This document shows positions 1-52,527 of a stretch of 52,527 nt of DNA, in pieces. The notes under the pieces are model-generated. The model ran no database searches. It saw nothing but the letters and a program-made list of their open reading frames with translations, and had not been told where the DNA came from. The stretch comes from Dehalococcoidia bacterium (GTDB lineage Bacteria; Chloroflexota; Dehalococcoidia; GIF9; AB-539-J10). A program made the translations under genes and the position numbers. Within the stretch, counting starts at the first letter, position 1. Each line of letters begins with the position of its first letter. The stretch spans positions 1-52,527 of the forward strand of contig DATKVL010000107.1 of the NCBI GenBank assembly GCA_035530115.1, in the 5' to 3' direction.

Positions 1-141
1 AATCAAGAAAAGAGGACGTGATACTATGTCAAGGACAGTGAAAATCGAAGATTGTAAGAAGGTAAACTGCTGGGCATTGAGAGAACTAAAATGGGGTGTT
101 CTTTGCATCGCTAAAGAATGCATACACCCAGAGGCTCATAC
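1..141. repeat. Terminal direct repeat copy 1 (exact copy of 52387..52527)
   Basis: Positions 1-141 (aatcaagaaaagaggacgtg...cccagaggctcatac) recur base-for-base as the last 141 nt of the window. Confidence 0.97.
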
Positions 142-23193: not shown

Positions 23194-24031
23194 CGCCGCC
23201 CTCATCGCCTGGTGTGAGGCGGAGACTATAGACCTCTGCCTTAAATCCCTCAAAGGCCACGCCGACGAGGTCGTGATCTCCGACACAGGTAGCTTCGACG
23301 GAACCGTCGGCAAGGCTCGGGAGTGGCTTGACAGACTAGACTTGCCGGGCGAGGTTTTCAGCGTCACGATTCGAGGGCTCGGTCAGGCCCGCCGGGCAGC
23401 GATAGAGAAATGCACGCATCCGTGGATACAACTGGTAGACGCGAACATCGTCCTCACTGAGGCATTGAAGAAAGAGCTAAGACAGTCTGCTGAGGGAGGG
23501 CGTCCCGGTATGGTTCGCAGCTTAAACCTGATGGGCGACTATGAGCATTACTTCACATCCCTCCCGTTCCATGCTCATCATAACGTATTATTCCCCCGTG
23601 ACGCAATTCGGTGGCGAGATGACTTCGACTACCCTCTTCCAGTCTCGGGGCGAATCCTGCTGAATAATTGGGCAGTGAGCCTCAGCCGGGTAAGGCCGGC
23701 GTGGCGCTACTGGCTCCGAGGTGAGCCCTTCAAACCGGAGACGGGTCGCGAGTGGCGGACGCCGGAGAACCGGCAACTGCAATGGCAATTCTCGGGCGGC
23801 CATCACCCCTCACTCCTGGAGTACGTAGAGGCCGAGGAGGGACTGACCCTTGAGGACGTGAAGCGCATCGCCCCCACCTGGTTCCTAGACCTGTTGCAAC
23901 GCTATGCAGCACCATTAAAGGAGAGTCACCGGCAAGGGCTTCCCGAGGTTATTAGGGAAGAACAGAGAAACCCACGGTACAAGTTGGTCTATGAGGGAGG
24001 TGAAATCGTTGGGCGATGGCCCGAACTCTAA
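23183..24031 (+). CDS. Glycosyltransferase family 2-like
   Basis: EVVISDTGSFDGT resembles the DTGSTDxT motif; GTG start overlaps previous gene. Confidence 0.6.
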   Translation: MKISAALIAWCEAETIDLCLKSLKGHADEVVISDTGSFDGTVGKAREWLDRLDLPGEVFSVTIRGLGQARRAAIEKCTHPWIQLVDANIVLTEALKKELRQSAEGGRPGMVRSLNLMGDYEHYFTSLPFHAHHNVLFPRDAIRWRDDFDYPLPVSGRILLNNWAVSLSRVRPAWRYWLRGEPFKPETGREWRTPENRQLQWQFSGGHHPSLLEYVEAEEGLTLEDVKRIAPTWFLDLLQRYAAPLKESHRQGLPEVIREEQRNPRYKLVYEGGEIVGRWPEL

Positions 24032-24770
24032 TGTAGCTGAATCATCAGGAATCCAATCGTCTAAACCCAAAGTCTCGTTAATAGTGACGAGTCATAACCA
24101 GATTATGTATAGCCAGATGATGTATTCTTCTCTGAAAAAGTACACTCGATACCCCTATGAACTTGTCTGGGTTGATTGTATAAGCACCGATGGAACGAGG
24201 GAGTGGCTTAATTCGGAGCTACACAAGGAAACCGTGAAAGTCTTCGTGCCAAAAATTGGGATAGGCGAGGCGATGAACATCGGCTTCAGTAAATGTAGCA
24301 AAGAAAGCGAATACATTGGTGACTTGGACAATGATTTGATTCTAACAGAAGGTTGGCTTACGAGATTGATCCAGCATATGGAGATGGACAAGAAAATAGC
24401 AGTGTGCCAGGCACTATGGAGTCTCCGTGGAAAAGATCCGGAGAAAATACATGAATTTGCACGGACTATAAAGAATAATAACGGCTTGAAGAAAATGTGG
24501 TGGGTTAATGGGAGCCACACCCTCTTCAGAAGAAGTGCTCTTGAACAAGTTGGACTTTGGAACCCTATTTACTGGATGGGTGAAGATAAGGATATTGGGA
24601 TACGGTTATCAAACGCTGGCTTTAAGAATGTAATTGCTTTGAATACATGTGTTTATCACTTTCAGGGGAGAACTACTAGCGTGATAGAAAAAACTGATCC
24701 AGAATGGAACAAACACAGGATAGAGTCAAAACGTTTATTAGATAAACTGTATGGTTCACGTAAACGGTAG
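23991..24770 (+). CDS. Glycosyltransferase family 2
   Basis: VSLIVTSHNQ, LVWVDCISTDGT, DLDNDLIL (DxD); alternative starts GTG 24000 or TTG 24009; composition turns AT-rich here. Confidence 0.75.
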   Translation: MREVKSLGDGPNSNVAESSGIQSSKPKVSLIVTSHNQIMYSQMMYSSLKKYTRYPYELVWVDCISTDGTREWLNSELHKETVKVFVPKIGIGEAMNIGFSKCSKESEYIGDLDNDLILTEGWLTRLIQHMEMDKKIAVCQALWSLRGKDPEKIHEFARTIKNNNGLKKMWWVNGSHTLFRRSALEQVGLWNPIYWMGEDKDIGIRLSNAGFKNVIALNTCVYHFQGRTTSVIEKTDPEWNKHRIESKRLLDKLYGSRKR

Positions 24771-24787
24771 GCTGGAAAATCGCTGGA

Positions 24788-25882
24788 TTGAATGTAGACT
24801 TGCTAACATATGAAAACGTTCTATCTAGATCCAAGATGAAAAGTGACATAAATAAACACCTGACTCGCCTCTATAAGCTAACTGCCAATATCCCTTTTAA
24901 AGAAAAGGTTGTAGTAGAACTTGGGGTGAGAAGTGGAGAGTCTACAACAGCATTGTTAGCTGCTGTAAACGATACAGGTGGGCGATTAATCAGTGTGGAT
25001 ATAGCAGAATGCAACAAGACTAGAAGACGATTGAAAGGAGAACCCAATTGGTCTTTTATCCATGGAAACGATATAGAGATCATCAAAGAATGGGACAAGC
25101 CAATAGACCACCTATTCATTGATACGAGCCATACCTTTAAACACACTCTTGCAGAACTCCGTGAATGGGGGGACTGGGTTAAAGAAAATGGAATAATGTC
25201 CCTTCACGACACAACTGCACAGAACTATCCTGATCTTATGAAAGCAATAGAAAAATATCTTGAAGAGAATCCAACATTTTTATTTACTAATTATCCCGAG
25301 TGTTTCGGTCTTGGTGTTATACAAAAACAGTCTAATGCTTTACCCAAGGAGTATTGGGAAGCTTGTAGATGGTATTTGAATGATGCTTACGACTTAGATA
25401 TAGATGATAAAACATCTTTTTATCCACAGAGATATTACGAAATTGCTGACGTATTAAAATCATTGGAGCCAAACCCCCAAAAAATATTGGAGGTTGGTTG
25501 CTTAACTGGTTACGGCATCAACATTTTGGAAAGTAGAGGCTTTGAGATCTATGGAATAGAAATTTATGGAAGGGCAATAAGAAAAAGGGTGTCTGATCAC
25601 ATCATTAAGGCTTCAACGGAGACCTTGCCCTTCAGGAACAAAAGTTTTGATGCCGTGATTAGTCTTGGAGTCCTGGAGCATATACACAGATCCGGCTTGG
25701 ATAGGGTCCTCCTTGAAATGGACAGGGTCGGTAAAGCAAACATCCATAGAATACACATGAAAGGTTTTGGTCGGTTTTGGAATCGTTCTTGGCACATAAC
25801 GGTCGAAAACATAGGTTTCTGGAAAACCTTGCTTGAAAAACTTGGGATTGGGGAGCATTGGCACTTGTATCATGAACCTTAA
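24788..25882 (+). CDS. Tandem double SAM-dependent methyltransferase
   Basis: Domain 1: VVVELGVRSGESTTAL...FIDTSHT (Methyltransf_24/O-MTase-like). Domain 2: ILEVGCLTGYGINIL...FDAVISLGVLEHI (Methyltransf_11-like). Confidence 0.75.
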   Translation: MNVDLLTYENVLSRSKMKSDINKHLTRLYKLTANIPFKEKVVVELGVRSGESTTALLAAVNDTGGRLISVDIAECNKTRRRLKGEPNWSFIHGNDIEIIKEWDKPIDHLFIDTSHTFKHTLAELREWGDWVKENGIMSLHDTTAQNYPDLMKAIEKYLEENPTFLFTNYPECFGLGVIQKQSNALPKEYWEACRWYLNDAYDLDIDDKTSFYPQRYYEIADVLKSLEPNPQKILEVGCLTGYGINILESRGFEIYGIEIYGRAIRKRVSDHIIKASTETLPFRNKSFDAVISLGVLEHIHRSGLDRVLLEMDRVGKANIHRIHMKGFGRFWNRSWHITVENIGFWKTLLEKLGIGEHWHLYHEP

Positions 25883-25905
25883 TAATTCTTAGGAGGAAAA
25901 TATTG

Positions 25906-26859
25906 ATGAAATGTCTCGTAACCGGGTCCGTTGGCTTCATTGGAAGCCATCTAGTTAACTACCTGAAATCCAAGGGGCACTGGGTAAGAGGGGCCGACAT
26001 AAAAAGTAGAAGCGATTGCTACCTAGAAACCAAGGAAGACGAGTTTCTACAGATCGATTTGAGGCTCTTCGAGAACGCGGTTTCCGCCCTAACCGACGTT
26101 GACTGGGTCTTCAACTTGGCGGCCGACATGGGGGGCATAGGCTACATCACCGAGTACAACGCCCCGATAATGCATAACAATTCCCTTATCAACCTCAACA
26201 TGCTTAAGGCATCCCGCCTCGCCGATGTGAACCGCTACTTCTTCAGCAGCTCGGCGTGTACCTACAACCGCGACCTCCAAGCGGAACCTCATTCCCCGCC
26301 CCTTAAGGAGAGCAGTGTATTACCGGCCCACCCAGATTCGGCCTACGGGTGGGAAAAGCTGTACGCCGAATTGCTTTGCAAGAGCTACGAACATGACTAC
26401 GGGCTTCCCGTTCGGATTGCCCGATTCCACAATATTTACGGCACCCACGGGACTTACACGGGAGGGCAGGAGAAGTTCCCGGCCGCGGTCTGCAGAAAGG
26501 TGGCCGAGGCTCCTGATGGGGGCTCGATCATTCTCTGGGGTGACGGCAAACAGAGGCGGAGCTACCTCTGGGTGGACGACTGCTGCGAGGGTTTCTACAG
26601 GCTGACTCAAAGCGGTTTCAGTGATCCGGTTAACATCGGCACGAGTCGGAGCGTCGGCGTGGACGAGCTGGCGCACGTGGTTATGGGGATAGCTGGGAAG
26701 AACCTGACGATTGAACACGATCTCTCGAAACCACAGGGTGTCCGAGGAAGGAACGCAGACTTAACCTTGCTTCGCAAGGTTTTGGATTGGGAGCCAAAAG
26801 TCAGTCTTGAAGATGGTATATCTAAACTCTATCACTGGATTGAAGAACGGGTGAATTAA
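25906..26859 (+). CDS. NAD-dependent nucleotide-sugar epimerase, GDP-mannose 3,5-epimerase-like
   Basis: VTGSVGFIGSHL (GxxGxxG); VFNLAADMGGIGYI, FFSSSACTY, SAYGWEKL (YxxxK), RIARFHNIYG, EKFPAAVCRK, WGDGKQRRS and PQGVRGRNAD parallel the plant/bacterial GME sequence as I recall it. Confidence 0.88.
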   Translation: MKCLVTGSVGFIGSHLVNYLKSKGHWVRGADIKSRSDCYLETKEDEFLQIDLRLFENAVSALTDVDWVFNLAADMGGIGYITEYNAPIMHNNSLINLNMLKASRLADVNRYFFSSSACTYNRDLQAEPHSPPLKESSVLPAHPDSAYGWEKLYAELLCKSYEHDYGLPVRIARFHNIYGTHGTYTGGQEKFPAAVCRKVAEAPDGGSIILWGDGKQRRSYLWVDDCCEGFYRLTQSGFSDPVNIGTSRSVGVDELAHVVMGIAGKNLTIEHDLSKPQGVRGRNADLTLLRKVLDWEPKVSLEDGISKLYHWIEERVN

Positions 26860-26875
26860 GAGCTAAAGCTGAACG

Positions 26876-27880
26876 ATGTTATCAGGAAACCCTAAAATGA
26901 AAATCCTGTTTCTAAGACGCCGATGCGAGGGCCTCGTAGGCGCACCAGGAAAGTATCATGAGTTCGAGCAAGCGGTCGGTAAACTAGCAGAATGCCAATG
27001 GGCGGGAGAAGGGTGGCCCCTGCATAAGCCGAACGAGTTCATGAATGAAACCGTGAAACGGGTGATGCCGGACGCCGACTGGGTGTTCGATAGGGACGAC
27101 GGATTCAACCCGCCGAGCAACCGACACTATAAAGTCGGCGCCTTCCTCTCAGATCTACACGGAAAATGGAGTAAAAACATTCAAACCCCACGCGGTTTTG
27201 TGAACTTGATAAACACCGCTGGATACGACGCCGTGTTCCTGAAGTATCTTCACATCTACGGAACCTCGGCGCCTCCAGACCTGTTTCTTAAGAGCCTCAA
27301 TCCCCGCGTATATTTCCTTCCTTGGAGCGTGGACCCAGATAAATTCAAGCCGCTTGAGAAGACGATAGATGCAGCGTTCCTCGGAAGGAAGGGACCCGTT
27401 TACCCGCTTAGAAACAGGTTGTGGAGGGAACTACCCCAATTCTGCGGGGAACGGAGGCTACGGCTGCTTATGAGGGAGCCCCCTAAGCTGGAAAGCTTCA
27501 AGAGAAAAATAAGCGATTACAAGGGGGATAGTCGCTACATTGTCGGTGAAGACTACGAGAAAACGCTAGGGCAGACGAGGATGCTTCTCTTCGGCTCCAG
27601 CAGATACCGTTATGCTATACAGAAATACACGGAGGGCGCAAGCACGGGATGCTTGGTTATGGCTGACGAGCCTAGCGACGCGGCGGCCCTCGGACTCGTA
27701 GATGGCGAAACCTATGTGACCATCACGGCGACCAACTGGAAGCACAAACTGGATTATTACCTGGGTCACCCCTCTGAGGCTGAACGTATAGCGGGCAACG
27801 GCAGACGCTTAATCTTGGAGCGACACACTCATAGGCATCGAGCTGAAGAGTTTCTGAGGAGTTTAGAAGATGGGCTTTAG
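26876..27880 (+). CDS. Glycosyltransferase, CgeB/Glyco_trans_1_2-like
   Basis: C-terminal KYTEGASTGCLVMADEP...GETYVTI...ERIAGNGRRLILERHTHRHRAEEFL resembles the GT1_2 domain; alternative start ATG 26897. Confidence 0.55.
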   Translation: MLSGNPKMKILFLRRRCEGLVGAPGKYHEFEQAVGKLAECQWAGEGWPLHKPNEFMNETVKRVMPDADWVFDRDDGFNPPSNRHYKVGAFLSDLHGKWSKNIQTPRGFVNLINTAGYDAVFLKYLHIYGTSAPPDLFLKSLNPRVYFLPWSVDPDKFKPLEKTIDAAFLGRKGPVYPLRNRLWRELPQFCGERRLRLLMREPPKLESFKRKISDYKGDSRYIVGEDYEKTLGQTRMLLFGSSRYRYAIQKYTEGASTGCLVMADEPSDAAALGLVDGETYVTITATNWKHKLDYYLGHPSEAERIAGNGRRLILERHTHRHRAEEFLRSLEDGL

Positions 27881-27930: not shown

Positions 27931-28602
27931 ATGGCAGCGATTAGATATTGTTCGACCCTAGATGTTAGCATCCTTGGGCAAGTTGAATGGCAGCAACTTG
28001 GCTTCGGATCCATCACCTACTTCAATGACTGGGTGCATGGCACCCTCATCTACAAAGCCATGGACTTCATAGACAACTATTGCCGCCACAACTTTCAGCT
28101 CAACGCGGGAACCATCACAATGGATGGCACGGGAAAGGAGACCCAACACATCCCACCCCACGCCAAAACGACGGGGTTAATGCCACCCCCCTCCTCGGCT
28201 CCATTGACTTCAACGCTTCCCGTCAACCTAATGCCAATCCCTCTCATGGAAATAACGGAAATCAAAATTGAGGGAGTAACACAAACACTAACGAACTTCC
28301 AAACCTATACCGCCCACATCACCCATAGAGACAACGTTTTCGCCCAAGGACGGCAGAACGTCGCGGTCATCGCCACATTCGGCTACGGAACCATTCCACA
28401 CGACATCCAATACGTTTGTGCAGAGTTATGCTCAAACATCATGGCAGACATGATTAGAAGGCGGACACTCGGCGACCTCATAACACCAGTCCTAGAAGGC
28501 GGCGGAAACCTGAACATGCTTTTCAGGTCACCGAAGGTACTCACAGAAAACGAAAAATCGATCTTAAACAAATATCGTTATCACGCGATGGAGATAACCT
28601 GA
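27931..28602 (+). CDS. Head-tail connector (gp6-like adaptor), putative
   Basis: N-terminus YCSTLDVSILGQ...LIYKAMDFIDNYCRHNF fits the gp6-like Y-x-t-x-x-d-l...A-x-x-x-I-x-x-Y-x-x-r-x-F pattern. Confidence 0.5.
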   Translation: MAAIRYCSTLDVSILGQVEWQQLGFGSITYFNDWVHGTLIYKAMDFIDNYCRHNFQLNAGTITMDGTGKETQHIPPHAKTTGLMPPPSSAPLTSTLPVNLMPIPLMEITEIKIEGVTQTLTNFQTYTAHITHRDNVFAQGRQNVAVIATFGYGTIPHDIQYVCAELCSNIMADMIRRRTLGDLITPVLEGGGNLNMLFRSPKVLTENEKSILNKYRYHAMEIT

Positions 28603-29096
28603 TGGCAACGACCACGATCCCAGAGGAGATCATCGCGTCGCTCGCGACGAACTGGGGTTTACTAACGCCCCTTGACGCCGGGCATCTGCATTTTGACGTG
28701 GGTTGGGTGGACCGGAAGCAGCTTAGAGCCACGAACGTGAACGCCCAGATAATCGTCAGCGGCCCGATAGCGTCTCCTATCAGGTATTTCGGATCCGATC
28801 TAGGAGTCGCGCCGGGCACACTGCTTCCGGGGCTGGTCTTGATGAGTTTCCACCGGTACGTGGTGAACGTCTGGGTGCCAATCCCACCGGGCGACGAGAC
28901 GGATACTTGGCGCGACTACGCTGAGCAGATACGGTACGAGGTTGTCCGAATACTGAATGAGGAGAGGACTAACTTCACCTGCACCAAGATAGCTTTCGAG
29001 ATCCCGCTTGACGAGGGCGTAGCGCACCACGAGATGGATGCGTCGCCAAGGATTCTGCGTTACGAAATAACTTTTCAGGTGAATCATGTCAGTTAA
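28602..29096 (+). CDS. Hypothetical neck/tail structural protein
   Basis: ORF track 164 aa, ATGA overlap; its last 10 codons (EITFQVNHVS*) are duplicated at the end of the downstream endonuclease ORF. Confidence 0.5.
   Translation: MATTTIPEEIIASLATNWGLLTPLDAGHLHFDVGWVDRKQLRATNVNAQIIVSGPIASPIRYFGSDLGVAPGTLLPGLVLMSFHRYVVNVWVPIPPGDETDTWRDYAEQIRYEVVRILNEERTNFTCTKIAFEIPLDEGVAHHEMDASPRILRYEITFQVNHVS
29064..29096 (+). repeat. Direct repeat copy 1 (gaaataacttttcaggtgaatcatgtcagttaa)
   Basis: 27/33 identical to 29843..29875; both encode EITFQVNH(V/I)S-stop. Confidence 0.85.
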
Positions 29097-29113
29097 ATGA
29101 GGTACAAGAAACT

Positions 29114-29875
29114 ATGTATAAACAAGGGTTTAAACACTCTGAAGAAACCAAGAGAAAAATGTCCGAGAGTCACCTGAAAAACCCTACACGTTATTGGCTG
29201 GATAAGAAACTATCCGAAGAACATAAAATAAAAATAAGTAATGCCCATAAAGGAAAAACACTATCTAAAGAACACAAACAAAAAATTAGCAGGGTTTTAA
29301 AAGGTATTATTACATGGAATAAAGGGCAAAAAGGAATATACTCAGAGGATCATAGAAGAAAAATAAGTACATCCTCGAAGGGAAACAAACATAATAAGGA
29401 CCGCAAGGCTTCTGAAGATACAAAACGAAGAATGTCGGATGCTCAAAAGAAAATAACTCATTCGGGTAGATTTAAAAAGGGAAACATGCACCGCTATTAT
29501 GAAAAAACATTTTCAGAAGAACATAAAAATAAAATTCGAGAAGCTAGACTAAAACAGGTTTTTCCCCAAAAGGATACTTCTATTGAAGTCGCTATGCAAA
29601 ACGAATTAACCCAACGAGGAATTATTTACGAGAAGCATCTTCCGGTTTGCGGGGTGTGCCAGCCTGACATAGTTTTTCCAGAGAGAAAGATCATTATTCA
29701 ATGCGATGGTGATTACTGGCATAACTTGCCTGAGATGGTCGAGAAGGATAGAAGGCAGGACAAGGCTCTTAGAGCGAATGGGTGGCAGGTTCTTCGTTTC
29801 TGGGAGCACGAAATTAAAGATAATGTTCAAAGATGTGTAGATGAAATAACGTTCCAGGTAAACCATATTAGTTAA
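29114..29875 (+). CDS. Homing endonuclease: six NUMOD3-like repeats plus a Vsr/DUF559-type PD-(D/E)xK nuclease domain
   Basis: Repeats such as GFKHSEETKRKMSESH, KLSEEHKIKISNAHKG and TLSKEHKQKISRVLKG; C-terminal QPDIVFPERKIIIQCDGDYWH...ANGWQVLRFWEHEI. Confidence 0.8.
   Translation: MYKQGFKHSEETKRKMSESHLKNPTRYWLDKKLSEEHKIKISNAHKGKTLSKEHKQKISRVLKGIITWNKGQKGIYSEDHRRKISTSSKGNKHNKDRKASEDTKRRMSDAQKKITHSGRFKKGNMHRYYEKTFSEEHKNKIREARLKQVFPQKDTSIEVAMQNELTQRGIIYEKHLPVCGVCQPDIVFPERKIIIQCDGDYWHNLPEMVEKDRRQDKALRANGWQVLRFWEHEIKDNVQRCVDEITFQVNHIS
29843..29875 (+). repeat. Direct repeat copy 2 (gaaataacgttccaggtaaaccatattagttaa)
   Basis: See 29064..29096; five of the six differences are silent wobble changes and one gives V->I. 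Confidence 0.85.
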
Positions 29876-29891
29876 GTTTGGAGTTGAGACT

Positions 29892-30173
29892 ATGGAGAAA
29901 GTAAGAATCGGAGAAGGTATCCGAAGATACACGTTTGACGAGTTGAAGGAGGAGATGACTGAGGAGGACGCCCTGTTCGCAGGGACCGCCGCCTTCGTCA
30001 TATCTATGAACTGGATCGACTACCAGCGGCTTAAGAAGCATCTGAGCATGATCCCGGAGTTCAGGGTAGTGTACAAGACCTTTTCGACCACCCATCTTCG
30101 AATCGTCAAAGTAGAGCAGTACGACGAATATCTTTTATGGCGGAAAAATAAGGAGAATAAAGATGGAATATAA
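29892..30173 (+). CDS. Hypothetical structural-module protein
   Basis: ORF track 93 aa; GC-rich except the last ~40 nt, which are AT-rich like the downstream HNH gene. Confidence 0.5.
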   Translation: MEKVRIGEGIRRYTFDELKEEMTEEDALFAGTAAFVISMNWIDYQRLKKHLSMIPEFRVVYKTFSTTHLRIVKVEQYDEYLLWRKNKENKDGI

Positions 30174-30861
30174 TAGCGAGTTCATTCAAAAACTAATTGA
30201 AAGACCGATGTTCAGTGTACTAGAAGAGGCTTATAATATACGGGATAGACAGAGTGCAGTTTGTCGTTATTGGGCATACACAGAATCAGAAAAGACGCAT
30301 CGACAAAAGCTACAAAAACAATATTATTTAGAAAATAGAAACAAAATATTAAAACAAAAGAAAGAATACTGCCAGAAAAACAAGGTCAAAAGACTAAGCA
30401 AGGCAAAGGAATATTATTTAGAGAATAGAGATAAAATAAAGAATTATCAAAAACAACACCGCGAAGAAAACGAACCTAGACTTCTTCAAGAGTCAAGAGA
30501 TCGTTATCAGAAAAATAGAGATAGAAATTTACTTTACGCAAAGAAGCGACACCAAATGAATAAAGAAACGGATAATAAAAAATCAAGGAATCGTCGCAAA
30601 GAGATGCGTTTAGAGATCTTAAAAATTCTAGGCGGCGAATGTCAAAGATGTGGTATTACCGATCATCGAGTTTTACAAATAGATCACGTATGTGGTGGTG
30701 GAAAAAAGGAACTCAAAAAAGGTGGAAATTACCACGTAATGAAAAACATTATTAAAAACCCAGAATGCAAACATAAATACCAGTTATTATGTGCAAACTG
30801 CAACTGGATAAAAAGGCATGAAAATAAAGAGTATCAAAAAGGACGAATTAGAGATAACTAG
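30163..30861 (+). CDS. HNH homing endonuclease
   Basis: CQRCGITDHRVLQIDHV...YQLLCANCNWIKRHEN (HNH motif); N-terminal YYLENRxKI repeats; AT-rich island. Confidence 0.85.
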   Translation: MEYNSEFIQKLIERPMFSVLEEAYNIRDRQSAVCRYWAYTESEKTHRQKLQKQYYLENRNKILKQKKEYCQKNKVKRLSKAKEYYLENRDKIKNYQKQHREENEPRLLQESRDRYQKNRDRNLLYAKKRHQMNKETDNKKSRNRRKEMRLEILKILGGECQRCGITDHRVLQIDHVCGGGKKELKKGGNYHVMKNIIKNPECKHKYQLLCANCNWIKRHENKEYQKGRIRDN

Positions 30862-30879
30862 AGTGGAGGAAACATAGAG

Positions 30880-31437
30880 ATGAATGAAATAGGTGACCTA
30901 GATCTATCAGAGGAACAGCTTAAGCGTAAGCTTAAGACAATGAAAACCCAGCCAAAGGAAAAGGAGAAACCAGAGGCCCCTAAGAAGAAGACGCGTGCAG
31001 AGGAAAACATTGAGCGGGAGGCGAGGCTTGAGGGCGCCGTGGATACGGAGGAGAATGAAGAGTCCGCCGACACAGCGGCGCAACTATCCATCCGCGACCG
31101 GTTGATGCGGCGAACCGAGAAGACGGTGTTCAAGACGGTGTTCAGGGATGACCTCGGTGACTTCGCCGTTGAGACCCGGCTGATGACGAGCAGTGAACGC
31201 AGCGACGCGTTGAGGATGAACCAGATGCTTGGGCAGGGTCGGGAGGATCTTTCTAAATACGATGAAGCCATCAAAGGACTGAAGGAGCTTGCCGCGGAGA
31301 TATGTGTGACGCCGGGGCTGGACGAGTACCTGAGATCAGGTGACGTCGGCGACGACGTCGTCGTCGCGATGGTGCTGAGAAGCGTCTACGGGACCCTGGA
31401 AAAGGTGGGGGAAGCCACATCCTTTCGCAAGGAGTAA
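30880..31437 (+). CDS. Hypothetical protein (possible tail assembly chaperone)
   Basis: ORF track 185 aa; Lys/Glu-rich N-terminus; a downstream ORF overlaps in the +1 frame. Confidence 0.45.
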   Translation: MNEIGDLDLSEEQLKRKLKTMKTQPKEKEKPEAPKKKTRAEENIEREARLEGAVDTEENEESADTAAQLSIRDRLMRRTEKTVFKTVFRDDLGDFAVETRLMTSSERSDALRMNQMLGQGREDLSKYDEAIKGLKELAAEICVTPGLDEYLRSGDVGDDVVVAMVLRSVYGTLEKVGEATSFRKE

Positions 31438-40074: not shown

Positions 40075-40116
40075 CTTATATATTGTTACCCGTACCCCAA
40101 TGTGGTGATGAATACG
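40075..40116 (+). promoter_or_regulatory. Motif A copy 1: TATA box plus conserved leaderless start (cttatatattgttacccgtaccccaatgtggtgatgaatacg)
   Basis: 38/42 identical to 41439..41480; TATA 26 nt upstream of GTG 40102. Confidence 0.7.
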
Positions 40117-40482
40117 ACAAAAACGCAAATTATGAAGCGCGGTTTACTATTTTTAACCGTTTTCCTAATCACATTAGGAACCATATCAATGGCGCTTCCG
40201 TCAGATAGCCAACTCAGCGAAGTCATTGGATACATCGAGGAATGCCGGGACATACACATATTATGGGTTGATTACCTCACCGAGAATAGCGAATTTGACT
40301 CCTCCCAAGTCGGCGATGTTCAATGGCACCAGGAATGGGTTGAACGATACAACGAAACCCTTGACATCCTGTATGATACGCGCCGTCTAGCCCAGCTGGT
40401 TAACCCGTTCTCCCTTCCCTGGACGCCGAGCGACCGTATATCTGCCTCCCTGATTCTGGCAGCCTCGACCAGCCAACCTTAA
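40102..40482 (+). CDS. Secreted/membrane-anchored hypothetical protein
   Basis: ORF track 126 aa; signal-peptide-like MKRGLLFLTVFLITLGTISMALP. Confidence 0.6.
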   Translation: MVMNTTKTQIMKRGLLFLTVFLITLGTISMALPSDSQLSEVIGYIEECRDIHILWVDYLTENSEFDSSQVGDVQWHQEWVERYNETLDILYDTRRLAQLVNPFSLPWTPSDRISASLILAASTSQP

Positions 40483-41438: not shown

Positions 41439-41480
41439 CTTATATATTGTTACCCGTACCCTTGTGTGGTGATGAAAACG
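41439..41480 (+). promoter_or_regulatory. Motif A copy 2 (cttatatattgttacccgtacccttgtgtggtgatgaaaacg)
   Basis: TATA 26 nt upstream of GTG 41466; drives the RHH gene. Confidence 0.7.
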
Positions 41481-41645
41481 CCGAAACCAGGTTTTAAACA
41501 AATCACCCTTTCCGAGGAACTTAAGGATCAAATCCAGAGCAGAGCTAGAGCCGAGGGGTTGACTATGCCTGACTTACTCCGGAAGCTTCTCGAAACAAAC
41601 TACCCAGATTACCCTGCTCCGGCGGGGGAGGAGAAAGAAAAATGA
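41466..41645 (+). CDS. Ribbon-helix-helix (CopG/Arc-type) regulator
   Basis: Below the track cutoff; (VV)MKTPKPGFKQITLSEELKDQIQSRARAEGLTMPDLLRKLLETNYP...; start is GTG 41466 or ATG 41472. Confidence 0.65.
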   Translation: MVMKTPKPGFKQITLSEELKDQIQSRARAEGLTMPDLLRKLLETNYPDYPAPAGEEKEK

Positions 41646-50658: not shown

Positions 50659-50862
50659 ATGAAAACGAAAATGAAGGAAAAAGTGAAAGGCAAGTTCTAC
50701 GGTGACGACCCCCAAACACTACAGATAATCGGGGACCGCATCAGAAACGAGTTTGCCCCCGGCTGTAGCGTAAGCACACCGCTACCCACCGAAAAGGGCG
50801 ACTATCATATCCTGGTGAGCATCTTCACCACGACCCAAAACACATCTGAAAGGAGGACATGA
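50659..50862 (+). CDS. Hypothetical protein
   Basis: ORF track 67 aa; C-terminus SERRT encodes the next RBS. Confidence 0.5.
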   Translation: MKTKMKEKVKGKFYGDDPQTLQIIGDRIRNEFAPGCSVSTPLPTEKGDYHILVSIFTTTQNTSERRT

Positions 50863-50866
50863 GAAG

Positions 50867-51058
50867 ATGGAAAAAATATCCCGCTTTAAGGAAGATCTAC
50901 TAAAGGAAAAACTATGGATAGAATTAGGGAAACCACATCTCCCCTGCGATGATTACCATAATTGTTTAAACTGCATCCGAAAACCAAAATGCCCCATTGA
51001 AATTGAGTGGAAAAAACGTCAATCCATTAACACCCATGAAAGGAGGACAACAGAATGA
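50867..51058 (+). CDS. Small Cys-rich hypothetical protein
   Basis: ORF track 63 aa; aggaggaca RBS. Confidence 0.55.
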   Translation: MEKISRFKEDLLKEKLWIELGKPHLPCDDYHNCLNCIRKPKCPIEIEWKKRQSINTHERRTTE

Positions 51059-51474
51059 ACCTACGTTGTTTGCTAGGCTTCCACGCCTGGTTCTACTATG
51101 ATGAGTTCGGTACATTTGATTGTGATCGCCGCATCTGTCGAAGGTGCGGAAAAATAGAGAGCACATACTTGAACCCAGCCATGTTTAGCATAGATGTATA
51201 TGAGCCATGCGGGTTTGCCTCAAAAGAACAGAAATCACAGATCTTAGACCCGAAATACCAGATCAAAAAATATCAAGCGGCCCTAGATGAACTTATCGAG
51301 AAAAATAAGGAAAGACAACAATTTGAAAAACTATACCCAAACACTACACCAGAATTAACACGAAGTTCCTCAGAGTTGAATTTTCTGGAACGAAAAATAA
51401 TGGCAGATTACAACCAGAAAATCACCGAATTATCCATTGTTACCCATGCCAAGAGGACGGAGGAAACACAATGA
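51055..51474 (+). CDS. Hypothetical protein (N-terminal CxxC pair)
   Basis: ORF track 139 aa; ATGA overlap. Confidence 0.55.
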   Translation: MNLRCLLGFHAWFYYDEFGTFDCDRRICRRCGKIESTYLNPAMFSIDVYEPCGFASKEQKSQILDPKYQIKKYQAALDELIEKNKERQQFEKLYPNTTPELTRSSSELNFLERKIMADYNQKITELSIVTHAKRTEETQ

Positions 51475-51689
51475 AAAAACCCTTTTCGATACTGGATCTA
51501 GTCTGCGACGAGGAAGGAAACCTCGTCAAGACAGAGATTCATGAATACATTAAGAACTTAGAAGGAATAATCCAGAAGGTCAAGATCTGGTTAAATGGTC
51601 TAGGTTACTCAATGAGCCCTGAAACCTTCATCGAGAAGCGATACGAACTTGAATGCATCCTCGAAGGTAGGGAGTACGATCCAGAATGA
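51471..51689 (+). CDS. Hypothetical protein
   Basis: ORF track 72 aa; ATGA overlap. Confidence 0.55.
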   Translation: MKKPFSILDLVCDEEGNLVKTEIHEYIKNLEGIIQKVKIWLNGLGYSMSPETFIEKRYELECILEGREYDPE

Positions 51690-51726
51690 CCATTAACCCC
51701 AACGCCAAGAGGACGGATGGAGAACA

Positions 51727-52047
51727 ATGAGTCTAAAAGAAAAAATATTATCTGAAATGGTATTCCCCAATGAAATAATAGATCAAGCTAGAGAGACATT
51801 CAAAGCACTCCCATCAGAGAAAAAATCCGTACTACGATATGAGTACATAGTTGAGAGACTTGAAAGACAACGCCTATGGAATCTGGTTGCAGAACTCAAG
51901 AAAACTATCCTTGAATGTGACAATAATTACGATCATGATAACATGGACGAAATGGACGCCTTAGAACACTTCCAGAAATACCATGAGATACTGATGTCCA
52001 TTATCTCCACTCCAGAGAATAAACAGGAGGTAAAGATCGTTGGATGA
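51727..52047 (+). CDS. Hypothetical protein
   Basis: ORF track 106 aa; aagaggacgg RBS. Confidence 0.55.
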   Translation: MSLKEKILSEMVFPNEIIDQARETFKALPSEKKSVLRYEYIVERLERQRLWNLVAELKKTILECDNNYDHDNMDEMDALEHFQKYHEILMSIISTPENKQEVKIVG

Positions 52048-52213
52048 AGATATACCTAAAGTCTGCTATTACTGCGGAGATCCACTCGACTATGTGCCGA
52101 GTTGCCCTAACCAGTTAGATGAGGATCGTCCTCTGATAAAGTGGGTCTGCCGAGCCTGTTGGATGGAAAGACATGTTGACAAATCCATTAGATACACGGG
52201 GGTAAGGACATAA
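52040..52213 (+). CDS. Small Zn-finger protein (57 aa)
   Basis: TTG 52040; LDEDIPKVCYYCGDPLDYVPSCPNQLDEDRPLIKWVCRACW...; stop overlaps next ATG (TAATG). Confidence 0.45.
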   Translation: MDEDIPKVCYYCGDPLDYVPSCPNQLDEDRPLIKWVCRACWMERHVDKSIRYTGVRT

Positions 52214-52407
52214 TGGTGGCTACCTGTGACTTTTGTGACAACCCAGCATATAATACAATAACTATGTTCGGGGTAAAACGACTAAGACAACCAGGCGTCC
52301 TTCTTTGTAGAGAACATGATGAGGAATTTCAAGAAAAACTCGTTAAGCTAGTTAATGGTTACTTGGAGAAACGTAAATCCATTAAGAATCAAGAAAAGAG
52401 GACGTGA
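52213..52407 (+). CDS. Small Cys-containing hypothetical protein
   Basis: ORF track 64 aa; its C-terminus NQEKRT lies in the terminal repeat and encodes the RBS of the junction gene. Confidence 0.55.
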   Translation: MVATCDFCDNPAYNTITMFGVKRLRQPGVLLCREHDEEFQEKLVKLVNGYLEKRKSIKNQEKRT

Positions 52408-52527
52408 TACTATGTCAAGGACAGTGAAAATCGAAGATTGTAAGAAGGTAAACTGCTGGGCATTGAGAGAACTAAAATGGGGTGTTCTTTGCATCGCTAA
52501 AGAATGCATACACCCAGAGGCTCATAC
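52387..52527. repeat. Terminal direct repeat copy 2 (exact copy of 1..141)
   Basis: Same 141 nt as the window start; unique genome length 52,386 bp. Confidence 0.97.

What the first reader, a model, noticed from the sequence alone, without database searches (positions are those of the whole stretch)
29064..29875. Homing-endonuclease insertion that duplicates, and synonymously recodes, the 3' end of the upstream structural gene
The structural gene 28602..29096 ends with EITFQVNHVS-stop. The NUMOD3 + Vsr-like endonuclease ORF 18 nt downstream ends with EITFQVNHIS-stop. The two 33-nt segments (29064..29096 and 29843..29875) are 27/33 identical, and five of the six differences are silent wobble changes (one gives V->I). 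The whole endonuclease gene is an AT-rich island. I read this as the scar of intronless homing into the 3' end of the gene. The element brought a recoded gene end, which is possibly cleavage-resistant, and the original end is now fused in frame to the endonuclease C-terminus.
Basis: partly seen in the sequence, partly recalled or inferred. Interest (0 to 1): 0.68.

Follow-up and report, generated by a model that had tools for sequence, protein, structure and literature searches.

The report
Homing endonuclease with duplicated gene end
A selfish endonuclease gene has inserted at the end of a phage neck-protein gene, and the last ten codons of that gene are now present on both sides of it, an arrangement known from fungal mitochondria that I did not find described for phages.

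Summary
Bases 29064-29096 and 29843-29875 are a 27/33 direct repeat, and no such pair appeared in 20 shuffles of the window. Five of the six differences are silent (p about 0.001-0.004).

The peptide ...EIT[FI]QV[DN]H[MV]S ends gene A (28602-29096) and nearly all of its 23 metagenomic homologues. Gene A has a tail-terminator-like fold. The tail therefore belongs to gene A, not to the endonuclease.

The ORF 29114-29875 is an intact endonuclease of the EDxHD (Vsr-like, I-Bth0305I) family with four NUMOD3 repeats. Its GC3 is 0.34, against 0.72 for gene A. Relatives such as L001 (90% aa identity) have one tail copy, then 15 nt, then the next gene. That is the empty site.

Endonuclease homologues end in CVDxI plus a variable tail. 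Here the sequence CVDEI runs straight into TFQVNHIS, so the join lies at a GAAATA microhomology.

Which copy is native cannot be resolved at this locus. A sister locus, L107, has a related endonuclease at the other end of gene A. There the downstream copy is identical to the native junction and the upstream copy is recoded.

The HNH gene at 30163-30861 has a similar but shorter flanking duplication. The architecture matches the fungal mitochondrial 'mobile ORF plus C-terminal duplication' hybrids. Cleavage resistance is untested.

The parts
27931..28602 (+). Head-tail adaptor gene (223 aa), upstream neighbour. Its stop overlaps the ATG of gene A.
   Evidence: PHROG 442 head-tail adaptor, E=4.7e-6. 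Synteny adaptor - gene A - g93 is conserved in 19 loci.
28602..29096 (+). Gene A (164 aa), a neck protein with a tail-terminator-like fold. This is the host gene whose 3' end is duplicated.
   Evidence: No Pfam or PHROG hit. 23 homologues. AlphaFold model pLDDT 81.5. Foldseek hits: P74-26 neck 9oab_Fa E=6e-6, lambda gpU 3fz2 E=1e-4, T5 p142. Residues 151-163 form the C-terminal beta strand.
29064..29096 (+). Repeat copy 1: the last 10 codons plus stop of gene A (EITFQVNHVS*). It is the functional gene end. It carries ACT TTT where all relatives with Thr-Phe have ACG TTC.
   Evidence: GC3 is 0.30 against 0.72 for the body of gene A.
29097..29113 (+). 17-nt spacer with a GAGG ribosome-binding site for the endonuclease. 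It may be a diverged copy of the native A|g93 spacer (12/20, p=0.03).
29114..29875 (+). Free-standing homing endonuclease gene (253 aa). It has an N-terminal region with four NUMOD3 repeats and a C-terminal Vsr-like EDxHD nuclease domain (about residues 142-248). The last 8-10 codons and the stop are host-derived.
   Evidence: Pfam. PDB 3r3p (I-Bth0305I) E=1.5e-4. E158, D185 and H203 invariant and D212 in at least 90% of 34 homologues. Nuclease-domain pLDDT 93-98. 978 homologues, the nearest at 50% identity.
29843..29875 (+). Repeat copy 2: EITFQVNHIS* fused in frame after the endonuclease's CVD. It is contiguous with the native downstream intergenic sequence.
29876..29891 (+). Native A|g93 intergenic spacer with the g93 ribosome-binding site (gTTTGGAGTTGAGACT). 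L001 has TTTGGAGTTGAGAAC.
29892..30173 (+). g93, the conserved downstream gene. Its own 3' end is altered by the second insertion.
30138..30150 (+). Upstream copy (TGGCGGAAAAATA, W R K N) of the short duplication that flanks the HNH gene.
30163..30861 (+). Second inserted endonuclease gene (HNH, 232 aa), the most AT-rich island in the window. It is absent from L001, L002, L004 and L007.
   Evidence: PHROG 4234 and 2255 HNH endonuclease. G+C 0.33, GC3 0.28. Empty sites shown.
30858..30887 (+). Retained native g93 tail (LEWRKHRDE*), out of frame with the HNH gene. Its stop overlaps the g185 ATG as in relatives. It contains the downstream copy TGGAGGAAACATA (30864-30876).

Best explanation
[quoted passage not shown] The phage genome is a circular assembly of about 52.4 kb.

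The insert lies between two diverged copies of the gene's last 10 codons plus stop. The upstream copy completes the neck protein, whose final beta strand it encodes. The downstream copy replaces the endonuclease's own variable C-terminal tail and supplies its stop codon. It also keeps the native intergenic region and ribosome-binding site of the next gene intact.

Inferred origin: the endonuclease cut an empty allele near the TAC|GAG boundary. The broken end on the gene A side was repaired by homology from a diverged donor that already carried the endonuclease gene after its own gene A end, which gave copy 1. The other end joined illegitimately at a GA(A/G)ATA microhomology between the endonuclease's native ...CVDEI codons and the recipient's ...YEIT codons. 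That retained the recipient's own end as copy 2.

Inferred consequences: the contiguous target is split. The synonymous divergence of the copies would both hinder cleavage of the phage's own genome and hinder loss of the insert by repeat recombination.

Shown: the insertion, the duplication, the host origin of the tail, the in-frame fusion, and the synonymous pattern. Inferred: cleavage, the repair pathway, polarity at this locus, and immunity.
For: Empty sites: L001 has gene A, then 15 nt, then g93. Nine relatives have a single tail copy.

The tail is conserved in nearly all of gene A's 23 homologues and forms the terminal beta strand of a tail-terminator-like fold.

Endonuclease homologues share ...CVDxI followed by tails of about 1-18 residues with little conservation. 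The window endonuclease switches to the gene A tail exactly after CVDEI.

The repeat is far beyond chance, with 5 silent changes to 1 conservative change. Composition is foreign: GC3 0.34 against 0.72. The endonuclease looks intact, with catalytic E158, D185, H203 and D212 spaced 27/18/9, against 26/17/9 in I-Bth0305I.

Copy 2 keeps ACG TTC and native downstream DNA, while copy 1 has ACT TTT, seen in no relative.

Sister locus L107: a NUMOD3-Vsr endonuclease gene (38% identical) lies between the adaptor and gene A. Its last codons plus the stop/start overlap match the native junction of the endonuclease-free relative L006 over 23 nt. The adaptor's new end is recoded: 4 silent and 3 conservative changes, and a changed stop.

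The same design flanks the HNH gene at 30163-30861 and an unrelated endonuclease gene in L050/L077.

Precedents: one-sided homing with microhomology junctions in T4 (PMC2988022), and fungal mitochondrial hybrids (PMC3630166).
Against: Polarity is unresolved at this locus. Copies 1 and 2 are equally distant from L001 (22/30 and 21/30). Both share GAA, CAT, AGT and TAA, a combination seen in no relative. Both have low GC3 (0.30 and 0.40). This would fit import of both copies together.

No donor and no close relative of this endonuclease was found; the nearest is 50% identical. All 20 contigs that carry it are essentially the same genome. The four loci fetched are identical to the window over the 26-33 kb stretch they cover, so there are no population variants.

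No cleavage data exist. Among 75 viral loci with homologous endonuclease genes, only the L050 lineage shows a comparable flanking repeat, so this is not a general family trait.
Confidence: 0.6

Rival explanations
1. The whole unit (copy 1, endonuclease gene, copy 2) arose earlier in an AT-richer relative. It entered this lineage as one cassette by ordinary two-sided homing or homologous recombination, so neither copy is this genome's original end.
For: Both copies share GAA, CAT, AGT and TAA against every sampled relative, which all use TCN for the final Ser. Both have endonuclease-like GC3, 0.30 and 0.40 against 0.72 and 0.645 in the flanking genes. Both show more silent differences from L001 (6/10 and 5/9 codons) than the gene body does (35/137), with p=0.03 and p=0.06.
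Against: The flanks immediately outside the repeat closely match L001: 18/18 upstream and 13/13 downstream. Co-conversion tracts would then have to end exactly at the repeat edges. Ten codons give little statistical power. At L107 the downstream copy is clearly native.
Confidence: 0.25
2. An in-situ duplication of the gene end, caused by slippage, unequal exchange, or fill-in of a staggered cut as in a target-site duplication. This happened before or during insertion of the endonuclease gene, and the copies then diverged in place.
For: The direct repeats sit exactly at the insert boundaries. L105 and L108 carry an 11-nt tandem duplication (GC[A/G]GAGATAAC) at the adaptor|A junction with no endonuclease gene. 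So small junction duplications do arise in this family.
Against: The copies differ at 5 of 9 same-residue codons, about twice the window-L001 rate of 26%. Yet L001 lacks the insert. Neutral divergence of the unconstrained copy would not stay synonymous (p about 0.002). Duplication lengths differ among cases (33, about 13, about 18-23, 30 nt), which argues against a fixed stagger. EDxHD enzymes leave 2-nt overhangs (PMC3239194).
Confidence: 0.12
3. A chance resemblance, convergent endonuclease tail, or assembly chimera.
For: Endonuclease homologues often have a loosely similar ...EIxxx[VL]N tail, for example P0072 CVDEITLNLN. PDB 3r3p ends ...FWVTHIS.
Against: Nucleotide identity is 27/33 including the AGT Ser codon, which no relative uses, and the TAA stop. 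Twenty shuffles gave no such pair. None of 119 other homologues matches more than 4/10 tail residues. The same protein is carried on 20 contigs, and the four fetched loci (ENA, Logan, JGI) are identical to the window.
Confidence: 0.01

Closest known systems
Fungal mitochondrial mobile-ORF 'gene hybrids' with carboxy-terminal duplication. Examples: Allomyces macrogynus atp6 (Paquin, Laforest and Lang 1994), Glomus atp6/atp9/cox2/nad3 (PMC3630166), Rhizopus atp9, Mortierella cox2.
   Same: The order is gene core, inserted C-terminal copy, endonuclease ORF, native C-terminal copy. The copies diverge in nucleotides but stay conserved in amino acids. [quoted passage not shown] The accepted interpretation is endonuclease-driven transfer from a diverged donor.
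   Different: The host here is a tailed-phage genome, not mtDNA. The endonuclease is EDxHD/Vsr-like, not one of the families usual in fungal mitochondria. The duplication is only 33 nt. The native copy is used as the endonuclease's own C-terminus and stop, not left as a pseudogene. Polarity is not proven at this locus.
EDxHD (Vsr-like) homing endonucleases: I-Bth0305I (PMC3239194), phage Hef, and the free-standing Vsr-like genes in 'fractured genes' (PMC2677866).
   Same: C-terminal Vsr-like nuclease domain with E/D/H/D catalytic residues, N-terminal NUMOD repeats, and occurrence in phage and metagenomic DNA. In Dassa et al. the invading element's 5' end supplies the upstream gene's stop, and the endonuclease's 3' end overlaps the downstream gene by 6-69 bp.
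   Different: There is no intron (no Rfam hit) and no split intein. The host gene is not broken but completed by a duplicated end. The repeats are NUMOD3 rather than NUMOD2-like. Sequence similarity to I-Bth0305I is only E=1.5e-4.
Intronless homing of T4 seg/mob endonuclease genes, and 'one-sided' illegitimate double-strand-break repair (Parker, Belisle and Belfort 1999, as reviewed in PMC2988022).
   Same: A free-standing endonuclease gene between conserved genes that is variably present among relatives. The proposed route into a new site is homology on one side and microhomology on the other.
   Different: T4 seg/mob genes sit in intergenic regions. The T4 review searched here has no mention of duplication. 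Activity here is unproven.
Aeromonas phage Aeh1 mobE insertion that splits nrdA (Friedrich et al. 2007, from memory; referred to in PMC2677866).
   Same: A free-standing phage endonuclease gene inserted within coding sequence without an intron, with host function preserved.
   Different: There the gene is split into two polypeptides. Here the gene stays whole through duplication of its end.

Membership tests
EDxHD (Vsr-like, I-Bth0305I-type) homing endonucleases | C-terminal nuclease domain homologous to Vsr | tested here: met
   Pfam Vsr E=1.8e-8, DUF559 4e-10, MTES_1575 6e-10. phmmer against PDB: Vsr 1cw0 E=2e-5, I-Bth0305I 3r3p E=1.5e-4. Nuclease-domain model pLDDT 93-98.
EDxHD (Vsr-like, I-Bth0305I-type) homing endonucleases | Conserved catalytic residues E...D...H...D | tested here: met
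   E158, D185 and H203 are invariant and D212 is present in at least 90% of 34 homologues. Spacing is 27/18/9, against E170/D196/H213/D222 (26/17/9) in I-Bth0305I. The mapping is by spacing and alignment, not by structural superposition.
EDxHD (Vsr-like, I-Bth0305I-type) homing endonucleases | N-terminal NUMOD-type DNA-binding repeats | tested here: met
   NUMOD3 E=1e-16, 4 stretches. I-Bth0305I has NUMOD2-like motifs, so the repeat subtype differs.
EDxHD (Vsr-like, I-Bth0305I-type) homing endonucleases | Site-specific cleavage of the allele that lacks the gene, next to the insertion site | not testable with these tools
   This needs purified protein and empty-site substrates. A 15-bp pseudo-palindrome, CGTTA-CGAGA-TAACG, spans the insertion boundary in L001, L003, L006 and L010. 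It is not statistically significant and is not present in all relatives.
Free-standing homing endonuclease gene (intronless homing) | Presence/absence polymorphism at the same position between conserved genes in related genomes | tested here: met
   Absent from L001, L002, L004-L008, L010 and L011-L018 at the A|g93 junction. Present in the window. Foreign composition.
Free-standing homing endonuclease gene (intronless homing) | Not embedded in a self-splicing intron or intein | tested here: met
   No Rfam match at E<=1 over 28400-31200. Gene A is complete upstream of the ORF.
Mobile endonuclease ORF with C-terminal duplication (Allomyces atp6 type) | Endonuclease ORF flanked by two copies of the host gene's 3' coding end | tested here: met
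   29064-29096 and 29843-29875, 27/33 nt and 9/10 aa.
Mobile endonuclease ORF with C-terminal duplication (Allomyces atp6 type) | The upstream (inserted) copy is foreign and the downstream copy matches close relatives | tested here: inconclusive
   Against L001, the copies score 22/30 and 21/30. Copy 2 keeps ACG TTC as in relatives with Thr-Phe, and copy 1 does not. Both have low GC3. The feature is met at sister locus L107, where the downstream copy matches native L006 over 23 nt and the upstream copy differs at 10 of 24 nt.
Mobile endonuclease ORF with C-terminal duplication (Allomyces atp6 type) | The copies diverge in nucleotides but stay conserved in protein | tested here: met
   Six nt differences and one conservative aa change, p=0.001-0.004.
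Transposon-type target-site duplication | Fixed-length, initially identical direct repeats generated by a staggered cut, with a transposase and terminal inverted repeats | tested here: not met
   The copies are 18% diverged. Duplication lengths differ among the four cases seen (33, about 13, about 18-23, 30 nt). There is no transposase domain. EDxHD enzymes leave 2-nt overhangs. Terminal inverted repeats were not searched for.

The most novel reading that the evidence does not exclude
In this phage family, endonuclease genes without introns may travel as 'gene-end replacement cassettes'. Each would carry a synonymously recoded copy of the upstream gene's last codons on its 5' side. Each would insert inside the coding sequence and read through the displaced native end as its own C-terminus and stop. 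This would be a third way, besides introns and inteins, for a homing endonuclease to occupy a conserved coding target in an essential virion gene. The recoding would give self-immunity and protect against loss by repeat recombination. The adaptor|A (L107), A|g93 (window) and g93|g185 (window HNH) junctions would be three independent instances.
Probability: 0.3. Interest if true: 0.65.

Novelty: new member of a known kind. Interest (0 to 1): 0.45.

Why it matters
Free-standing phage homing endonuclease genes are usually described as sitting in intergenic DNA and cutting a neighbouring gene. This locus and its sister cases show that they can insert within the last codons of essential virion genes. 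Function is kept through a short duplicated and recoded gene end. That is the solution known from fungal mitochondria.

The locus leaves a readable footprint of how an intron-less endonuclease gene enters a new site: homology on one side and a microhomology join on the other. It also gives a concrete pair of near-identical sequences for testing target recognition and self-immunity of an uncharacterised EDxHD enzyme.

For annotation, the last residues of such endonucleases, and sometimes of their neighbours, can be chimeric.

Tried and rejected
**Searches for relatives that returned little or nothing**
- GenBank phages: no DNA match (blastn over 6 kb) and no protein match (tblastn with gene A).
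- IMG/VR with gene A alone found nothing. With the alignment it found only L104, which is the same contig as L010.
- GTDB genomes gave no relative.
- No close relative of the endonuclease exists among 5.8 billion proteins; the nearest is 50% identical. The donor could therefore not be found.
- The four fetched loci that carry the endonuclease are identical to the window, so there is no within-population polymorphism to use.

**Checks on the locus that were negative or too weak to use**
- RNA structure around both repeat copies and the empty site: z-scores are positive, so nothing is there.
- No group I intron or other Rfam family.
- The promoter and terminator scan gave nothing at the junctions. 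Promoter-like hits were 8 against 4.0 +/- 1.9 expected, and all lie inside the AT-rich ORFs.
- I tested whether the tail is unusually diverged from L001. Per-30-nt identity is within the range seen elsewhere in the gene. The excess at the codon level is marginal, p=0.03 and p=0.06. I did not rely on it.
- I tested whether the repeat extends through the spacer to the ATG. The result was 12/20, p=0.03, which is only suggestive.
- GGAGATAAC lies at the adaptor end, and the related GA(G/A)ATAAC opens the gene A tail. It is not over-represented in the window: 17 matches against 13.5 +/- 3.5 expected.
- The pseudo-palindrome at the empty-site boundary occurs in only 4 of 9 relatives, and one such match is expected by chance in a region this size.

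**Hypothesis rejected**
- I considered that the tail is native to the endonuclease and was copied to gene A. I rejected this because nearly all gene A homologues carry the tail, including those without the endonuclease gene, while the endonuclease homologues do not.
Full report
**1. The observation**

The sequence is as described.
- Gene A (28602-29096, 164 aa) ends ...RILRYEITFQVNHVS*.
- After a 17-nt spacer, an ORF of 253 aa (29114-29875) ends ...CVDEITFQVNHIS*.
- The two 33-nt segments, 29064-29096 and 29843-29875, are 27/33 identical (family D5). Five differences are silent and one gives V->I.
- Pairs of this quality within 1.5 kb occur five times in the window and not once in 20 shuffles.
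- Six random substitutions leave at most one amino-acid change with p=0.001-0.004.
- The ORF has four NUMOD3 stretches (E=1e-16) and a Vsr/DUF559 nuclease domain.
- It is an AT-rich island: G+C is 0.28-0.39 over most of it against 0.507 for the genome. GC3 is 0.34 against 0.72 for gene A.

**2. Whose tail is it?**

Gene A has 23 metagenomic homologues down to 33% identity. The complete ones above about 60% identity all end ...RILRYEIT[FI]QV[DN]H[MV]S or a close variant. The more distant ones keep a recognisable RYEI[TS]-type tail.

An AlphaFold model (pLDDT 81.5) has a tail-terminator or neck fold. The Foldseek hits are P74-26 neck 9oab_Fa at E=6e-6, lambda gpU, and T5 p142. Residues 151-163 form the C-terminal beta strand. 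The tail is therefore a native and structurally important part of gene A.

The endonuclease has 978 homologues, the nearest at 50% identity. They share ...D[VA]xxCVDxI and then have tails of about 1-18 residues with little conservation. None of 119 other homologues matches the window's tail at more than 4 of 10 positions.

The window protein follows this family through CVDEI and then continues with TFQVNHIS. The crossover therefore lies in or just after GAA ATA. That sequence is shared by the endonuclease's own D-E-I codons and by gene A's Y-E-I codons.

Some homologues have loosely similar tails (CVDEITLNLN, CIAKIVFEVN). Patchy similarity may have helped the join. It may also explain why the model places the borrowed tail as a continuation of the C-terminal helix.

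**3. The empty site**

L001 (JGI Ga0311295_1218558) is the closest relative, with gene A 90% identical in protein and 86% in DNA. It reads ...CTGCGTTAC GAGATAACGTTCCAGGTGAATCACGTATCA TAG TTTGGAGTTGAGAACATGGAG... So gene A is followed by 15 nt and then the homologue of g93.

In the window the same upstream sequence leads into copy 1. The same downstream sequence (gTTTGGAGTTGAGACTATGGAG) follows copy 2. The insert is 779 bp, counting one repeat copy.

Across 19 related loci the order adaptor - gene A - g93 is conserved. No locus other than the window has two tail copies.

The junction is a general hot spot. L002 and L004 carry a 74-aa ORF there. L005, L006 and L010 carry a 167-aa ORF, followed in L010 by a 262-aa ORF.

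**4. What the endonuclease is**

phmmer against the PDB finds E. coli Vsr and the catalytic domain of I-Bth0305I (3r3p, E=1.5e-4). I-Bth0305I is the prototype of the EDxHD family (PMC3239194).

E158, D185 and H203 are invariant and D212 is nearly invariant among homologues. Their spacing is 27/18/9, against 26/17/9 for E170, D196, H213 and D222 of I-Bth0305I.

There is no Rfam hit over 28400-31200, so there is no group I intron. The gene is free-standing and intact, and by these criteria it is a member of that family. Activity is untested.

**5. Which copy is original?**

The two copies are equally distant from L001 (22/30 and 21/30).
- Both share GAA, CAT, AGT (Ser) and TAA, a combination seen in no relative. 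Every relative uses a TCN Ser codon, and most have GAG.
- Copy 2 keeps ACG TTC, found in all relatives with Thr-Phe at that position. Copy 1 has ACT TTT.
- Both have low GC3, 0.30 and 0.40.
- Silent differences from L001 are somewhat enriched in both: 6/10 and 5/9 codons against 35/137 in the gene body, with p=0.03 and p=0.06.
- The copies differ from each other at 5 of 9 same-residue codons. That is about twice the window-L001 rate.

In-place neutral drift of a recent duplication does not fit. The pattern is what is seen between alleles of related phages.

Two readings remain:
- One-sided repair, in which copy 1 comes from the donor and copy 2 is native.
- Import of an already duplicated cassette.

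**6. A sister case that settles polarity elsewhere**

In L107 (Logan SRR25638247_2337) a 288-aa NUMOD3-Vsr endonuclease, 38% identical to the window's, sits between the adaptor and gene A.

L006 lacks the endonuclease gene at this junction, and its gene A is 90% identical to L107's in DNA. Its native junction is TAT CAC GCG GCG GAG ATA ACT TAA TGG CGT A.

The L107 endonuclease ends ATG ATA GTG GCG GAG ATA ACT TAA TGG CGT A. This is identical over 23 nt, including the TAATG stop/start overlap with gene A.

The adaptor's new end is TTT CAT GCA ATG GAA GTC ACA TAG. It has four silent changes, three conservative replacements and a different stop.

There the upstream copy is clearly the foreign, recoded one, and the native end is fused to the endonuclease.

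**7. More instances**

- The HNH gene at 30163-30861 is the most AT-rich island in the window and is absent from L001, L002, L004 and L007. It is preceded by g93 with an altered end (...LLWRKNKENKDGI*). It is followed, out of frame, by the native g93 end LEWRKHRDE*. The stop of that remnant overlaps the g185 ATG as in relatives. The duplicated core is TGGCGGAAAAATA / TGGAGGAAACATA.
- I screened 75 IMG/VR loci with homologous endonuclease genes. One lineage, L050/L077, has a comparable flanking repeat. It is 30 nt long and contains the upstream gene's stop and the downstream gene's ribosome-binding site, and the second copy lies inside the endonuclease's last codons.
- The design is therefore recurrent but not universal.

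**8. Mechanism**

Homing alone does not create a duplication. The best fit has four steps:
- The endonuclease cuts an empty allele near the left repeat boundary.
- The gene A side invades a diverged donor that carries the endonuclease gene.
- Synthesis proceeds through the donor's gene end and the endonuclease gene.
- The other end is captured at the GAAATA microhomology.

This is 'one-sided' illegitimate repair, as shown for T4 introns (Parker et al. 1999, via PMC2988022).

The outcome keeps gene A whole, keeps the g93 translation signals, and splits the former contiguous site. Divergence of the repeats would also slow loss of the insert by recombination. The longest perfect match between them is 8 nt.

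All mechanistic steps are inferred.

**9. Comparison with known systems**

The order gene core - inserted C-terminus - endonuclease ORF - native C-terminus is the architecture of fungal mitochondrial mobile-ORF hybrids. Examples are Allomyces atp6 and Glomus atp6/atp9/cox2/nad3. The shared features include nucleotide divergence with protein conservation, and in some cases an ORF in phase with the host gene parts (PMC3630166).

Dassa et al. noted that free-standing Vsr-like and GIY-YIG elements supply the stop of the upstream gene and overlap the downstream gene (PMC2677866).

Literature searches found no description of such a gene-end duplication for a phage endonuclease gene. The library is incomplete.

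I file this as a new member of a known kind.

**10. Context**

The first and last 141 nt of the window are identical. A contig of the same length from another assembly starts 11,120 bases away. The window is therefore a complete circular assembly of about 52.4 kb. One source labels it a Dehalococcoidia MAG. It encodes a terminase, neck proteins and a tape-measure protein, so it is a tailed-phage genome.

Noticed in passing
window 30100-30900 (HNH ORF 30163-30861; repeats 30138-30150 and 30864-30876; remnant 30858-30887): A second inserted endonuclease gene (HNH) has the same design. g93 gets a new end, and the native g93 end (LEWRKHRDE*) is kept after the HNH stop, overlapping the g185 start. 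The HNH protein's own last residues (...RIRDN*) also resemble the native g93 end (...RNRDE*).
   Followed up: partly
L107 1058-1924 (with 1034-1057 and 1901-1931): A related phage carries a different NUMOD3-Vsr endonuclease gene between the adaptor and gene A. Its last codons are the native adaptor end, identical to L006 over 23 nt. The adaptor itself ends in a recoded copy.
   Followed up: yes
L105 about 2520-2556; L108 about 1298-1334: An 11-nt tandem duplication (GC[A/G]GAGATAAC twice) lies at the adaptor|gene A junction with no endonuclease gene. It changes the adaptor end to ...AEITRR*. It could be slippage, a resistance mutation in a target site, or a footprint of a lost insert.
   Followed up: no
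L050 2290-2944; L077 2110-2751: In an unrelated viral lineage, a 201-aa NUMOD3-Vsr endonuclease gene is flanked by a 30-nt duplication of the upstream gene's stop plus the intergenic ribosome-binding site. The second copy forms the endonuclease's last codons and overlaps the next gene's ATG.
   Followed up: partly
window 1-141 and 52387-52527: The window ends overlap by exactly 141 nt, and another assembly of identical length starts elsewhere. So this is a complete circular phage genome of about 52.4 kb, although one source labels it a Dehalococcoidia MAG.
   Followed up: partly
L002 822-1046; L004; L005 1246-1749; L006 667-1170; L010 4527-5815: The gene A|g93 junction is a general insertion hot spot. 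Other relatives carry a 74-aa ORF there, or a 167-aa ORF (followed in L010 by a 262-aa ORF). None of these has a tail duplication.
   Followed up: partly
window 23991-27880: Sugar-modification genes sit inside the structural module just upstream of the adaptor. They are a GT2 glycosyltransferase, a double methyltransferase, an NAD-dependent epimerase-like ORF (family named from the gene table), and a GT1-like protein. Relatives have a similar block (L003, L105). This suggests virion or host-surface glycan modification.
   Followed up: no
PDB 3r3p chain A, C-terminus, versus window 29843-29872: The catalytic-domain construct of I-Bth0305I ends ...QKFWVTHIS. This matches the window endonuclease's borrowed tail EITFQVNHIS at 6 of 9 positions. 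No closer homologue shows this, so it is probably coincidence, but it is unexplained.
   Followed up: partly
L001 843-857 (CGTTACGAGATAACG); equivalent to window 29058-29072: In some alleles without the endonuclease gene (L001, L003, L006, L010), a 15-bp pseudo-palindrome CGTTA-CGAGA-TAACG is centred on the insertion boundary. One half-site is changed in copy 1, and the other half is replaced in copy 2. It is a candidate target for a dimeric EDxHD enzyme but is not statistically significant.
   Followed up: partly
window 50839-52403 and 40075-40122 / 41439-41486: Repeated intergenic motifs. One family of about 35 nt (...CCATT[AG][AT][CT]ACCCATG..AAGAGGAC) has 4-5 copies before small ORFs near the window end. 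A 48-nt pair (88% identical) begins CTTATATATTGTTACCCGTACCC. These are probably regulatory or promoter repeats.
   Followed up: no
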